From sequence record PZ674596.1: DNA of 64,000 nucleotides. One strand, given 5' to 3'. Origin of the DNA: a phage. Made by a program: the position numbers. Shown one piece after another: positions 30,001 to 33,000 of this stretch. Every line of letters starts with the position of its first letter. Position 1 is the first letter of the stretch.

Positions 30001-33000
30001 TGGCTGACGTTATCATTATCCCGCTGCGTCCTAAGCGTCGTGATTTGAAATCTTTACGTGACATCGATCCTATTATCGACAATGTTCGCAATGTAAACGA
30101 TAAAGTGAAGGTCCGCGCGGTCATGAACCAGTGCCCGGCTTTGCCATCACAAGTGTCTCGCATTCTGGCGGCTAAAGAGATTGTTGAGACGTTTGGAATC
30201 GAGTCTGCGCCAGTCAATCTATATAACCGCAACGTCTATGATGATGCGGAAGAGTCTGGTCGTTCTATCTTTGAAATGACCGGTAGCGAGCGCGACAAAA
30301 AGGCGGAAGCCGAGTTTGAAGAATTTGTAGATTATCTGTTGAGTCTGGAGGAAGAAGAATAATGTCCATGAAAATGGGTGACCTAGCAAAGCGCAAAGAG
30401 CCTGATGCACCGGCTAAGAACACAACTCCTTTGCGCCAACCAGTCAGACCACAGGGACGCCCGACTCGTGGCAAAGAGAAAATTAAAAGCCGCACAATGT
30501 CACTGGAGGACGAATACTTCGAACTGCTGGAGATGATGAAGTTCATCCCTCGCTTCGAGAAGTTCACTCGTTCTGACGTGATTCGAGCAGCCATTTTCCA
30601 TCTGGCAGAGAAGTCACCGCAGGAAATCGAGGACATCGTGAAATTGAATGAGGCGATCACCGCTGCCGATGTCACGATGCGTACCGATGAAATTAAACGC
30701 GAGTTAATGAAGAAAGGTTGATATAAATCTCTAAGGCTGGTCTGCATTGGACAGCCTTAGAAATATTTCGTTCTATGAAAGCTATTCGTAGTTAAGCTCA
30801 CCGAACAGACTGAACATCAAGTCACCATCCAAAATTTCAAAGGGCAACTCGACATACTCATCCTTATGTCTCGGAATTGCGTTGCCGTCGTTAGGGGCAT
30901 TCTTGGTATAACCTTTTACATGTTTACCGTTTTCTTTTGTATACGGCAGCACGACAATTCGACCGTGATTTTTTGAAATGATAGTTCCTTCTTTCCAGAG
31001 CGTATTGCCTCTTGAGGTGGTTTCGCTTTCGCTAGCAACTTTAACACTCCAACCTACCTGATTTTTGTCCTCAAACCAGAAAACAAAGTTGCCAACAACC
31101 AGTACCTTTTGCCCATTCCTGAGAGCTTCATCCAGCATTCTTTTTACGCTGGCGAGTTGCAGTAACCGGTTAGCACGCGGCAGAAGCATTGAGCGAATAG
31201 TCGCTTTTGTTTTTCCCCAATGTGCAGCACCTGATAAACCAAAACCTCTGGCTATGCGTTCTTGGTAGCAGATCTTCGCTGTCTTAGCTTTGTTGTTATA
31301 TGAACATTCCCAAGTGTTAGGAGCAACGAGTTGAAGTGAAACTTGGAATTTGGGAAGAAAAACAAAATGTAAGTAAGGCATCTCGCTTAGCACGTCAAAA
31401 AGGGGTTGACGCAAAGTTTCGTAATCTGGGTTAATTATTAACTCATTTAATGTCACTCGCGGATCGTTGGCGTGTGCCTTAATTGCTTCGTTGAGCATTA
31501 TATGCTCTTCATCCATGAGACGTGATTTGGCTTTGAGTGCTTTGTCAACTTTCAAACGCAATGACTTCTTTTGAAACATAGATAGAGGAAGTTTTTCAAT
31601 GTCAAAGCTCACGTTTTTATTCAGCTCTAATGCCGCTTTTCTTGCTTCAGGATAGTTATCGTAGTCGTCATCAAAAGCGTGGTTTGGCATACCACGATCA
31701 ACATATCGCCGATACCAAGCAAGGGTTCCATCATTACGGAGTTTCAGACAGAACATCGACCATTTATTCCGTTCATATTTAGGCTGAGGCCAAAAAGCCA
31801 GTTCGGGAAGGCCATATCCTGGAAGTCTATTCATGCGCATGGTGACAATATCCACGAGGCTAAAACACTGATTCTAACATGATCTCCCTTGATAAATCTG
31901 TCAATGACATAGCATCTGGGGTTGGAGTCAAATTATGTTGTTCTTGGTATCCATTAGGAGCCTGTTTCTGTATATAAATAATAAGTAACTTATTAAATAT
32001 ATACGGAAGCAGGTCTTTTAAAAGACACCACCAGAACAACTCCCTTCCGTTTTCACTTCCAAAAACTGCCACCAGTAGCTATCATCCGCTCATTGTGATA
32101 AGTAAGTAACTACCTACCGGGTGAGCCACATGAGCCAAATCTTTTTCGATACCATCGACAACGACCAGTACGACTTCATGACAGAGTGGAATACCGCTGT
32201 TATGGACAAGTGGGTCGCTGAAAACATTGGTTTGTCGCGCTGTAAAGATGAGGCTGAACTCTTCGAGACGAAGTGGTTTGATTACCGCGACATGCATCCT
32301 CTTATGGCCACCTGTCTGTTTACGGAGGCATACAAACGTCAGTACTCAAATATCATGCTGACGCACGGTCGCGAACACTTTGAAACAGCTCCGTTCACCA
32401 CCGGGTTAAAACGCCTGCCTTATCAGGAGTTGTCGACTGCCAATAAAACGTCTCTATGGAAAGCACGCCAGTTTGCTGACCGCTATTGCTGCTCATACGA
32501 CTACTTTATCTCCACCGTTCTTTCCGCAGCTGCACGACGGCTGTGGGACAAGCTGCCGCGCCCACAGCATTTATGGCAGCCAGAACTGATTGAGATATTT
32601 GAAGAGAAATTAGCCAGACGCGCAACAACCCGTCTGGATGACTCTCTGGTTAGCTTTAAGCATATGGGAGACATGCAGTTCAACCCGATTCAGGAAAGCT
32701 ATTTTGAGTGGATTCTGGAGCGTTTGCGCACCATCCCTCGCAGCAAGCGCATACGCGCAATTTTCTCCGCTATCTGGCTAATGGAAATCGTTCCAGAGCG
32801 CCTTATTTCCGCCCACTTTCCAGAAGAACTGGAAGAAGCACGGCGGTTTATTGATCCCCTATCTAATTAACTAATACTAGAAAACAATTTGTTTAAAAAA
32901 CAAAGGAAAGCACATGACCGAACTTTGCCATACAGGACGCGGGCTGTCCGAAGAGTTTGATGAAGATTTCCAGAACAGACTGACGGCATATTTTTGTCGT

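What the first reader, a model, noticed from the sequence alone, without database searches (positions are those of the whole stretch)
30782..32870. Divergent pair of uncharacterised genes between the partition and replication modules
A 357 aa protein on the - strand and a 249 aa protein on the + strand flank a 265 bp region that carries two copies of the ATAAGTA palindromic motif (31979 and 32097). Neither has a motif I recognise (no P-loop, HExxH or nuclease signature seen by eye). Their position and regulation make them candidates for a replication accessory factor, a repressor or anti-repressor pair, or an unrecognised defense or anti-defense function.
Basis: inference. Interest (0 to 1): 0.5.

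Follow-up and report, generated by a model that had tools for sequence, protein, structure and literature searches.

The report
Defence-hotspot cargo beside replication gene
The two "paired" unknown genes are unrelated neighbours on an SSU5-like phage-plasmid: one is a swappable single-gene cassette in a slot that otherwise holds known anti-phage defence genes, and the other is a conserved core gene that nearly always sits just upstream of the element's own DNA helicase and primase.

Summary
The window is an E. coli SSU5-like phage-plasmid. Both ORFs are real and under purifying selection, but they are not a functional pair.

**ORF357** (30782-31840, - strand; 352 aa from the ATG)
- It is a self-contained moron cassette (30724-31952) with its own hairpin terminator and a conserved extended -10 promoter.
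- It lies between the stop of the small parB-like gene and a conserved 53-bp palindrome.
- In 77 related elements this slot is empty or holds other cargo: PD-T4-3, PD-T7-5, DUF2971/PDC-S31, a KAP NTPase/PDC-S49, or further unknown genes.
- Only 37 of 248 E. coli genomes with the backbone carry ORF357.
- The family (more than 346 proteins across Proteobacteria) has no conserved partner gene.
- It occurs only in temperate elements or next to Gabija, Lamassu or SMEK genes.
- It has no Pfam, PADLOC or PDB match.
- Best reading: a new candidate single-gene anti-phage defence protein, not validated.

**ORF249** (32130-32870, + strand; 246 aa)
- It is a backbone gene from a large unannotated all-alpha family (916 representative clusters).
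- A DnaB-like helicase and a primase follow it directly in 27 of 33 informative clusters.
- Best reading: a helicase-loading or replication-initiation accessory factor with no detectable homology to lambda P, T4 gp59 or SPP1 G38P/G39P.

**ATAAGTA motif.** It is real, and it is a window-wide intergenic motif.

The parts
29694..30362 (+). ParA-type partition ATPase (222 aa); left flank of the locus.
   Evidence: Pfam MipZ, AAA_31, CbiA and ParA hits.
30362..30721 (+). 119-aa partner of ParA (small ParB/ParG-like protein, inferred). Its stop codon is the left edge of the cargo slot.
   Evidence: phrog_5111, unknown function. Conserved next to ParA in Cyrano, SSU5 and Klebsiella elements. Homology with relatives ends at 30723/4.
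30724..31952 (.). Exchangeable cargo cassette (moron) that occupies the hotspot in this element.
   Evidence: This is the only part of 30301-33000 with no match in Cyrano or SSU5. The slot length in 77 related loci ranges from 21 bp to 2030 bp with at least 7 different cargo types.
30727..30764 (.). 13-bp-stem hairpin between the convergent parB-like gene and ORF357; probable bidirectional terminator carried by the cassette.
   Evidence: Inverted repeat I5, 92% complementary. Conserved in the Klebsiella cassette. Every other cargo type also begins with its own GC-rich hairpin right after the parB stop.
30782..31840 (-). ORF357: 352 aa from the ATG at 31840 (357 aa if the GTG at 31855 is used). 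Stand-alone protein of an uncharacterised family; candidate defence protein.
31871..31879 (-). TGTTAGAAT, an extended -10 promoter-like element for ORF357 (inferred). A TTGACA lies 22 nt further upstream.
   Evidence: Read from the sequence. Conserved as TGTTA(A/G)AAT in Klebsiella and IMG/VR copies of the cassette despite a 9-bp indel upstream. The consensus promoter scan itself found nothing.
31961..32019 (+). Conserved 53-bp palindrome (arms CCTGyTTCTGTATATA / TATATACrGAAGCAGG) followed by TCTTTT. It forms the right edge of the cargo slot and is probably the terminator of the parAB(+cargo) transcript. Its centre carries an ATAAGTA-type inverted repeat.
   Evidence: Repeat I1. RNA fold -31.9 kcal/mol, z = -8.8. 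Arms conserved in Cyrano, SSU5 and Klebsiella phages. It directly follows the parB stop in empty-slot elements.
32041..32065 (+). Block TCCCTTCCGTTTTCACTTCCAAAAA, identical in all four compared elements apart from one T/C column. It overlaps the -35 region of a weak sigma-70-like promoter whose -10 is TATCAT at 32080-32085 (inferred).
   Evidence: Alignment A4; sequence.
32098..32111 (+). ATAAGTAAGTAACT: second copy of the window-wide intergenic motif, 19-32 nt upstream of the ORF249 start. Operator-like.
   Evidence: Conserved in all 4 relatives.
32130..32870 (+). ORF249: 246 aa from the ATG at 32130. Conserved all-alpha backbone protein that heads the helicase-primase module; probable helicase-loading or initiation accessory factor.
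32914..34254 (+). DnaB-like replicative helicase (446 aa), 43 bp downstream of ORF249.
   Evidence: Pfam DnaB_C.
34264..35517 (+). DnaG-like primase (Toprim).
   Evidence: Pfam DNAG_N and Toprim_2.

Best explanation
The locus consists of two independent units that happen to be adjacent.

**(A) ORF357 is an exchangeable cargo gene.**
- The cassette at 30724-31952 holds one gene with its own terminator hairpin and its own promoter. It is oriented against the lytic genes.
- It sits in a recombination hotspot of SSU5-like phage-plasmids, between the stop of the last partition gene and that operon's conserved palindromic terminator.
- In other elements the same slot is empty or holds known or candidate single-gene anti-phage systems.
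- I infer that ORF357 is a lysogen-expressed, stand-alone anti-phage (superinfection) defence protein of a new family.
- Its confidently modelled N-terminal 220 residues (beta3-alpha modules on a long helical hairpin) would sense or bind a phage component.
- Its nearly invariant C-terminal 130 residues would carry out the response, most likely an enzymatic, abortive-type one. The conserved motifs are HWGKTK..IR..LLPRAN, NHGR, PY.KE, G.TKN, PRH and a conserved C-terminal ...GEL.YE.
- The domain roles are inference only.

**(B) ORF249 is a core backbone gene.**
- It is the first gene of a phage-type replisome module: ORF249, DnaB-like helicase, primase, ligase, Pol III alpha, gp32-like SSB, 5'-3' exonuclease and a RecA-like protein.
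- The plasmid replicase (Rep_3 RepA) lies about 29 kb away.
- I infer that ORF249 recruits or loads the element's own DnaB-like helicase. It would play the role that lambda P, T4 gp59 or SPP1 G38P/G39P play for their helicases, but with an unrelated fold.
- Its expression is probably controlled through the ATAAGTA-type operator just upstream.

**Shown:** cassette boundaries, hotspot polymorphism, the identity of the alternative cargo, the gene-neighbourhood statistics, and the absence of known homologues.
**Inferred:** defence activity, domain roles, promoter and terminator function, and helicase loading.
For: **Element identity and boundaries**
- The element is SSU5-like. Close E. coli relatives match only 79% of the region, in two pieces.
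- The breakpoints are 30723/4 and 31950-53.

**The slot is a hotspot**
- Among 77 loci the slot is 21-22 bp (empty, 5 loci), about 817-927 bp, about 1054-1111 bp, about 1186-1244 bp (ORF357), 1396 bp, about 1750 bp or about 1930-2030 bp.
- Alternative cargo matches PADLOC models: PD-T7-5 (4.5e-139), PD-T4-3 (1.3e-23), PDC-S31/DUF2971 (3e-41) and PDC-S49/KAP NTPase (2e-21).
- A 2025 preprint independently reports PD-T4-3 and PD-T7-5 in E. coli and Shigella SSU5 phage-plasmids.

**ORF357 is accessory, stand-alone and confined to temperate or defence contexts**
- It is in 37 of the 248 E. coli genomes that carry the backbone, always on plasmids.
- Its dS against the Klebsiella copy is 0.85, against 2.2 for the adjacent backbone gene, which suggests recent cassette exchange.
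- The family is uniformly 340-355 aa with no fusions and no conserved neighbour; the largest neighbour cluster is present in 11 of 76 loci.
- In a Pseudomonas prophage it sits in a moron slot beside SMEK_N and SLATT_4 genes.
- In Salmonella and Aeromonas prophages it sits next to the integrase.
- In a Vibrio P2-like temperate phage it sits in the lysogeny operon: repressor, AAA_21 ATPase, integrase, ORF357.
- In chromosomes its neighbours include GajB (1e-221), LmuB (7e-107), PDC-S06 (7e-186), AriA and AbiLi.
- Among 50,697 phage records it occurs only in temperate elements.

**ORF249 is core and linked to the helicase**
- It is present in every SSU5-like relative examined and in 248 E. coli genomes.
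- The family comprises 916 representative clusters.
- A DnaB-like helicase lies 16-550 bp downstream on the same strand, usually followed by a primase, in 27 of 33 informative 70%-identity clusters.
- The AlphaFold model is confident and all-alpha (pLDDT 87).
- RepA and the other replisome genes are present in the window.
Against: - There is no experimental evidence for either function.
- The case for ORF357 rests on guilt by association. Hotspots and defence islands also carry toxins, anti-defence genes and other cargo.
- Only a minority of its chromosomal neighbours (roughly 10-15 of 149 representatives) are clear defence genes, and I could not compute a proper enrichment statistic.
- ORF357 matches no PADLOC model and has no recognisable effector domain.
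- Its conserved C-terminal part was modelled with pLDDT below 50, so the domain roles are speculative.
- For ORF249, profile comparisons with lambda P, lambda O, T4 gp59 and SPP1 G38P/G39P are all non-significant; the best has a probability of about 1%.
- Six of 33 clusters of ORF249 relatives are not next to a helicase. They sit beside an integrase in islands carrying type I R-M, so the domain's core activity may be DNA binding or regulation rather than helicase loading.
- The consensus scan did not call a promoter for either gene.
Confidence: 0.55

Rival explanations
1. The two genes form a divergently transcribed, co-regulated functional pair, as the first reader proposed (for example repressor and anti-repressor, or two subunits of one system), sharing the intergenic ATAAGTA operators.
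For: The genes are adjacent and divergent, with two motif copies between them.
Against: - The homology breakpoint at 31950-53 puts the ORF357 promoter in the insertion, and puts both motif copies plus ORF249 in the backbone.
- ORF357 is absent from 211 of 248 E. coli backbones.
- ORF357 is replaced by unrelated genes or by nothing in relatives.
- Outside SSU5-like elements the two families never co-occur.
- The motif is window-wide, not specific to this gap.
Confidence: 0.03
2. ORF357 is accessory cargo but not a defence protein. It could be an anti-defence factor, a lysogenic-conversion or fitness factor, a toxin-like stabilisation gene, or a factor aimed at competing mobile elements.
For: - Hotspots of mobile elements carry mixed cargo.
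- ORF357 matches no defence model and has no effector domain.
- In Salmonella it sits beside a virulence effector gene (NEL/LRR), and in Aeromonas it lies near PAAR and TseH genes.
- ORF357 motifs are absent from the candidate tables of the DefensePredictor study.
Against: - Four of the seven alternative occupants of the same slot are known or candidate defence genes.
- It is absent from virulent phages.
- It is co-oriented with repressor and integrase in a P2-like phage.
- In chromosomes it neighbours Gabija, Lamassu and SMEK genes.
- At 352 aa and with deep conservation it is unlike typical small, fast-evolving anti-defence proteins.
Confidence: 0.27
3. ORF249 is a DNA-binding transcription regulator or origin-binding initiator, rather than a helicase loader. 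It might even be the protein that recognises the ATAAGTA-type inverted repeats.
For: - The invariant residues are rich in Arg, Lys and aromatic residues (KWFDYR, WxARQxAD, LPRPxQ).
- One relative is fused to an HNH_3 nuclease domain.
- Long variants carry a Cys-rich, highly basic tail and sit next to integrases with no helicase nearby.
- An operator-like motif precedes the gene.
Against: - No helix-turn-helix or other known DNA-binding domain was detected.
- The tight, same-strand linkage to helicase and primase in 27 of 33 clusters points to a replisome role.
- No iterons or AT-rich origin lie near the gene.
- An origin-binding initiator and a helicase recruiter are not mutually exclusive.
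Confidence: 0.25

Closest known systems
Defence hotspots of temperate phages and satellites
   Same: A fixed position between conserved genes of a temperate element holds mutually exclusive cargo cassettes. Most of these cassettes are anti-phage systems, and they are exchanged between otherwise collinear genomes. In a Vibrio P2-like phage the ORF357 homologue lies in exactly such a lysogeny-side position.
   Different: Here the host element is an SSU5-like phage-plasmid, and the slot lies between the stop of the parAB operon and its palindromic terminator. Each cassette brings its own hairpin. I found no description of this slot in the phage-plasmid papers I read.
PD-T4-3 and PD-T7-5 (single-gene defence systems of Vassallo et al. 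2022, as represented in PADLOC-DB)
   Same: They occupy the same slot in sister elements, are of similar size, and are single genes with their own regulatory signals.
   Different: There is no sequence similarity to ORF357. PD-T4-3 has a GIY-YIG domain, whereas ORF357 has no recognisable catalytic domain.
Phage morons (Hendrix and colleagues; from my own knowledge)
   Same: An extra gene flanked by its own promoter and terminator, inserted between two backbone genes, oriented against the surrounding operons, and present or absent among close relatives.
   Different: None in terms of architecture. "Moron" describes the layout, not the function.
Phage helicase loaders and replisome organisers: lambda P, T4 gp59, SPP1 G38P/G39P
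   Same: - A small, mostly helical protein encoded immediately upstream of, or near, a DnaB-type helicase in a phage replication module.
- The element also encodes a gp32-like SSB, as T4 does.
- A short motif, LPRPxQLY, resembles lambda P's invariant LPSPGQF.

Membership tests
Moron / exchangeable cargo cassette | Present or absent among otherwise collinear relatives, with sharp homology breakpoints. | tested here: met
   Breakpoints at 30723/4 and 31950-53. Present in 37 of 248 E. coli backbones. Empty slots of 21-22 bp exist.
Moron / exchangeable cargo cassette | Own promoter and terminator. | tested here: inconclusive
   The hairpin at 30727-30764 and a conserved TGTTA(A/G)AAT extended -10 are present. 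The consensus scan called no promoter, and there are no transcript data.
Defence-hotspot cargo | Alternative occupants of the same slot are anti-phage systems. | tested here: met
   PD-T7-5, PD-T4-3, PDC-S31 (DUF2971) and PDC-S49 (KAP NTPase) occupy the same slot. The preprint 10.1101/2025.09.12.675607 lists PD-T4-3 and PD-T7-5 in SSU5 phage-plasmids.
Known anti-phage defence families (PADLOC-DB v2.0; DS-series of DefensePredictor) | Significant match to a family model or to a listed protein. | tested here: not met
   No PADLOC hit at E <= 0.1 for ORF357 or ORF249. ORF357 and ORF249 sequence motifs are absent from the DefensePredictor supplements. DS-37 and DS-33A, the DS-series proteins whose sequences I could read, are unrelated proteins.
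Anti-phage defence system (functional definition) | Expression lowers phage efficiency of plating or protects the culture. | not testable with these tools
   Requires cloning and a phage challenge.
Lambda P family (PF06992) helicase loader | Sequence or profile homology to replication protein P. | tested here: not met
   No Pfam hit. hhalign of the ORF249 family against lambda P alone and against a 20-member P alignment gives probabilities of 1.2% and 0.7%, over a 33-residue motif only.
T4 gp59 / SPP1 G38P-G39P / lambda O | Sequence or fold homology. | tested here: not met
Helicase-associated replication accessory gene (gene-neighbourhood definition) | Conserved same-strand adjacency to a DnaB-like helicase across divergent relatives. 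| tested here: met
   27 of 33 informative clusters have the helicase 16-550 bp downstream.
Divergent regulator pair (repressor / anti-repressor) | Co-occurrence of both genes and a DNA-binding domain in at least one of them. | tested here: not met
   The genes do not co-occur. No helix-turn-helix or other DNA-binding domain was detected.

The most novel reading that the evidence does not exclude
ORF357 founds a new single-protein anti-phage immune family: about 350 aa, an unmatched fold, and an invariant C-terminal module ending in ...GEL.YE. The family is spread by temperate phages and phage-plasmids across alpha-, beta- and gamma-proteobacteria. The parB-to-terminator slot of SSU5-like phage-plasmids would then be a previously undescribed defence hotspot. 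Its other unknown occupants (a 214-aa plus 136-aa membrane-protein pair and a 225-aa lipoprotein) would be further new systems. Separately, ORF249 would define a new, widespread class of loader or organiser for phage DnaB-type helicases.
Probability: 0.4. Interest if true: 0.65.

Novelty: new member of a known kind. Interest (0 to 1): 0.45.

Why it matters
SSU5-like phage-plasmids are common in clinical E. coli, Klebsiella, Salmonella Typhi and Shigella, and they carry ESBL genes, as this one does.

- A defined cargo slot that swaps defence genes would explain part of their host-range and superinfection behaviour. It would also give a cheap discovery platform, because anything found between the parB stop and the palindrome becomes a defence candidate.
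- ORF357 is a well-conserved, single-gene, easily clonable candidate with no known domain. A positive phage-challenge result would add a new family and probably a new effector chemistry.
- ORF249 is the only unassigned gene at the head of a self-contained replisome and belongs to a family of more than 900 clusters. Assigning it would fill a gap in how these elements load their own DnaB-type helicase.

Tried and rejected
**Database and structure searches that returned nothing useful**
- Pfam, NCBIfam and PADLOC gave nothing for either protein, and PHROGs gave only families of unknown function.
- A PDB sequence-profile search gave nothing.
- Foldseek against BFVD found nothing for ORF249.
- The afdb50 library was unavailable.

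**Ideas about ORF357 that I dropped**
- The HxKxxxxD-like string GHTKNAPHD looked like a PLD/HKD motif. I rejected this because the His is Tyr in the whole enterobacterial clade, including this window.
- I checked whether ORF357 could be DS-33 or DS-37, which are reported in Salmonella SSU5 phage-plasmids. DS-37 is an unrelated 463-aa protein and DS-33 is an unrelated two-gene system.

**Ideas about ORF249 that I dropped**
- I considered that the integrase-linked long ORF249 variants might belong to Gamma-Mobile-Trio elements. I rejected this because GMT has two recombinases plus a StbA-like protein.
- I looked for iterons or an AT-rich origin near ORF249 and found none.
- hhalign against lambda O, lambda P, T4 gp59 and SPP1 G38P/G39P was non-significant.

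**Other checks**
- Rfam hits on the palindrome are spurious miRNA-hairpin matches below threshold.
- A literature search for accession numbers of family members found nothing.
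Full report
**1. What the window is**

The region matches SSU5-like phage-plasmids: Escherichia phages Cyrano, PhiR41_1 and CMS-2020a at about 98%, Salmonella phage SSU5 at 82%, and Klebsiella phage-plasmids at 78.5%. The gene order around the finding is:
- a GNAT toxin with a TacA antitoxin (- strand)
- ParA (29694-30362)
- a 119-aa partner gene (30362-30721)
- ORF357 (- strand)
- the intergenic gap
- ORF249
- a DnaB-like helicase (32914-34254)
- a primase (34264-35517)

Further downstream lie a ligase, Pol III alpha, a gp32-like SSB, a 5'-3' exonuclease, a RecA-like protein and, at 61949-63163 on the - strand, a Rep_3 initiator. 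The Rep_3 protein fits the IncFIB typing of this group (PMC7969092).

**2. Check of the observation**

Both ORFs exist at the stated coordinates and the gap is 265 bp.
- The likely true starts are ATG 31840 (352 aa) and ATG 32130 (246 aa), judged from PHROG profile starts and homologue lengths.
- ATAAGTA lies at 31981 and 32098.
- The first copy is the centre of a 53-bp palindrome at 31961-32013. The second is not palindromic.
- The shared 9-mer TAAGTAACT occurs only at these two places in the window.
- Both genes are under purifying selection. dN/dS is 0.148 and 0.085 for ORF357, and 0.016-0.053 for ORF249.

**3. The two genes are not a unit**

BLAST of 30301-33000 against Cyrano and SSU5 shows homology up to 30723/4 and again from 31950-53. 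The 1.23 kb in between has no counterpart in either.
- Cyrano has a 267-aa + strand gene there, and SSU5 has three + strand genes including a DUF2971 protein.
- Klebsiella elements carry the same cassette as the window.
- The palindrome, an almost invariant block (TCCCTTCCGTTTyCACTTCCAAAAA) and the second motif copy are conserved in all four elements. They therefore belong to the ORF249 side.
- In complete E. coli genomes the ORF249 gene is found in 248 of 5426 genomes and the ORF357 cassette in 37, always on plasmids of about 103-125 kb.

**4. The slot is a cargo hotspot rich in defence genes**

I anchored on the end of the 119-aa gene and on the palindrome in 77 loci (74 IMG/VR plus 3 GenBank). 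The slot length falls into these classes:
- 21-22 bp, i.e. empty (5 loci)
- about 817-927 bp
- about 1054-1111 bp
- about 1186-1244 bp, the ORF357 class
- 1396 bp
- about 1750 bp
- about 1930-2030 bp

Clustering the encoded proteins gives at least seven cargo types. Their database matches are:

| Cargo | Match | E-value |
|---|---|---|
| 398-aa protein | PD-T7-5 | 4.5e-139 |
| 255-aa GIY-YIG protein | PD-T4-3 | 1.3e-23 |
| DUF2971 proteins | PDC-S31 | 3e-41 |
| 568-aa KAP NTPase | PDC-S49 | 2e-21 |
| 214-aa + 136-aa membrane-protein pair | none | - |
| 225-aa lipoprotein | none | - |
| ORF357 | none | - |

Further points:
- A 2025 preprint that screened SSU5 phage-plasmids with DefenseFinder also lists PD-T4-3 and PD-T7-5 in E. 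coli and Shigella elements, without describing a hotspot (10.1101/2025.09.12.675607).
- One 181-aa DUF2971 protein was validated experimentally as DS-45 (PMC13092281 supplements).
- Every cassette begins, right after the parB stop, with its own GC-rich hairpin. In empty elements the palindrome follows the stop after 21-22 bp.
- The palindrome folds strongly as RNA (-31.9 kcal/mol, z = -8.8) and is followed by TCTTTT. I read it as the terminator of the partition operon, with cargo inserted between the last gene and that terminator.

**5. ORF357 itself**

*Cassette layout*
- Hairpin at 30727-30764, gene at 30782-31840, and a TGTTAGAAT extended -10 at 31879-31871.
- The -10 element is conserved as TGTTA(A/G)AAT in other copies.

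*The family*
- At least 346 proteins, uniformly about 350 aa.
- About 50% identical between E. coli and Pseudomonas, Vibrio or Shewanella, and 43-48% identical to alpha-proteobacterial members.
- All members are annotated as hypothetical, and there are no domain fusions.
- The family is detected in only 92 stretches among 185,579 species genomes.
- The C-terminal half holds most of the invariant residues: HWGKTK..IR..LLPRAN, NHGR, PY.KE, G.TKN, PRH, LP, D.M and a terminal Y-E.

*Structure*
- AlphaFold gives a confident N-terminal 220 residues: three-stranded sheets with helices, and two long helices.
- pLDDT is below 50 for the C-terminal part, probably because the alignment is shallow and has low diversity there.

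*Genomic context*
- Clustering the neighbours of 76 loci shows no conserved partner; the largest neighbour cluster is in 11 loci.
- In P. brassicacearum it is a moron in a prophage tail operon, flanked by SMEK_N and SLATT_4 genes. An SMEK protein is the validated DS-27.
- In Salmonella and Aeromonas it sits next to a prophage integrase.
- In Vibrio phage 1.202.O (Peduoviridae) the order is repressor, AAA_21 ATPase, 209-aa gene, integrase, ORF357 homologue, all co-oriented.
- In chromosomes, genes within two positions include GajB (1e-221), LmuB (6.6e-107), PDC-S06 (7e-186), AriA, AbiLi, HipA, DUF2971 and integrases.
- Among 50,697 phage records it is found only in three SSU5-like Klebsiella elements and this temperate Vibrio phage.
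- Among plasmids, 143 of 152 records are non-mobilizable replicons, mostly of about 106-112 kb, including Salmonella plasmids of pHCM2 size.
- Synonymous divergence between the E. coli and Klebsiella cassettes (dS 0.85) is much lower than for the adjacent ORF249 (dS 2.2). This points to more recent exchange of the cassette.

Taken together, these data make a lysogen-expressed, stand-alone defence function the most likely reading. The evidence is contextual only.

**6. ORF249 itself**

- The word-indexed search found only 40 relatives, mostly on contigs of about 100-112 kb.
- An exhaustive profile search found 916 representative clusters at E <= 1e-3. None of the 10 relatives scanned had a Pfam domain covering the region homologous to ORF249; one had an N-terminal HNH_3 fusion.
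- The AlphaFold model is confident (pLDDT 87, pTM 0.86) and all-alpha.
- BFVD gave nothing and the PDB sequence profile gave nothing.

*Gene neighbourhood*
- Eighty metagenomic loci with 27-40% identical relatives fall into 45 clusters at 70% identity.
- In 27 of the 33 clusters with enough flanking DNA, a DnaB-like helicase starts 16-550 bp downstream on the same strand, usually followed by the primase. Searches show the same arrangement.
- The remaining 6 clusters belong to a longer form of 320-360 aa with an extra Cys-rich, basic tail. It sits next to a tyrosine integrase in islands that carry type I R-M.

*Comparison with known loaders and initiators*
- Profile comparisons with lambda O, lambda P, T4 gp59 and SPP1 G38P/G39P are non-significant.
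- The only recurring alignment is a 33-residue stretch in which the family's LPRPxQLY lines up with lambda P's invariant LPSPGQF, at a probability of about 1%.
- No iterons or AT-rich origin lie nearby.

I conclude that ORF249 is a replisome accessory factor functionally tied to the element's own helicase. It is most likely a loader or organiser, and it belongs to a family not yet linked to any characterised one.

**7. The ATAAGTA motif**

- The window holds 21 copies against 5.8 expected, and none of 100 shuffles reaches 21.
- Eighteen of the 21 copies are intergenic, mostly 7-105 nt upstream of + strand genes in both the structural and the replication regions.
- The extended consensus is ATAAGTAAGTACTTA, and several sites are inverted pairs: 35532/35545, 42109/42122 and 58676/58685.
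- Upstream of ORF249 and of the gene at 54707, the motif lies 12 nt after a -10-like hexamer (TATCAT and TATAAT respectively). This is an operator-like position.
- The motif marks ORF249 as part of a regulon spanning the window. It says nothing about ORF357.

**8. Verdict**

- The "pair" interpretation is wrong.
- "Defence" fits ORF357 and "replication accessory" fits ORF249. Both remain hypotheses supported by strong comparative context but by no homology or experiment.
- Novelty: ORF357 would be a new family within the known category of hotspot-borne single-gene defence candidates. ORF249 would be a new family in the role of a helicase-associated replication protein.

Noticed in passing
window-wide; e.g. 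2858, 4681, 14754, 35532/35545, 42109/42122, 49569, 54687, 55152, 58676/58685, 58921, 60298: ATAAGTA (extended consensus ATAAGTAAGTACTTA, often as inverted pairs) occurs 21 times against 5.8 expected. Eighteen of the 21 copies are intergenic, usually just upstream of + strand genes. This is a regulatory motif spread across the window (an operator or a promoter element) whose binding protein is unknown.
   Followed up: partly
window 38201-40594: An ISEcp1 (IS1380-family) transposase is followed by a CTX-M-type class A beta-lactamase, inserted next to the ATP-dependent DNA ligase gene (36910-38019). This is the same arrangement as in known E. coli plasmids carrying CTX-M-55, -64 or -199. It lies at the ARG hotspot next to the ligase that Pfeifer et al. 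2022 described for SSU5-like phage-plasmids.
   Followed up: partly
window 28577-29414 (- strand): A GNAT-type toxin (KacT/TacT-like) with a TacA antitoxin is oriented against the lytic genes, as ORF357 is. It is not the 'GNAT' system DS-33 of DefensePredictor; its sequences are absent from that paper's tables, and DS-33A is an unrelated 320-aa protein.
   Followed up: partly
L002:2621-3665 (SSU5_035/036), L061, L063, L047, L091; L081 slot: Other occupants of the same hotspot have no Pfam or PADLOC match: a pair of predicted membrane proteins (214-255 aa plus 136-141 aa) and a 225-aa lipoprotein. They are further candidates for defence or superinfection exclusion.
   Followed up: partly
L011, L097, L179 (relatives P0160, P0159, P0178): Long ORF249-family variants (333-358 aa, with an extra Cys-rich and very basic C-terminal tail) sit next to a tyrosine integrase and a small ORF, in three independent islands that all carry type I restriction-modification genes. 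No helicase is nearby.
   Followed up: partly
ORF249 residues ~140-150 vs lambda P residues 98-106: The nearly invariant LPRPxQ(L/H)(Y/W) of the ORF249 family aligns with the invariant (F)LPSPGQF of lambda replication protein P. The alignment is statistically non-significant (hhalign probability about 1%) but it is the same in both comparisons.
   Followed up: partly
window 30782-31840 vs 32130-32870, compared with L003: Synonymous divergence between the E. coli and Klebsiella elements is 0.85 for the ORF357 cassette but 2.2 for the adjacent backbone gene. This suggests the cassette moved between backbones more recently than the backbones diverged.
   Followed up: no
L183 (P0266): One metagenomic ORF249-family protein carries an N-terminal HNH_3 endonuclease domain. 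This hints that the ORF249 domain can serve as a DNA-targeting module.
   Followed up: no
window 47443-50882 and 55256-58631: CobT-like VWA and CobS-like AAA_5 genes, a T4 gp32-like SSB, a 5'-3' exonuclease and a RecA-like protein accompany Pol III alpha. Together they form a largely self-sufficient replisome, separate from the Rep_3 plasmid initiator at 61949-63163.
   Followed up: no
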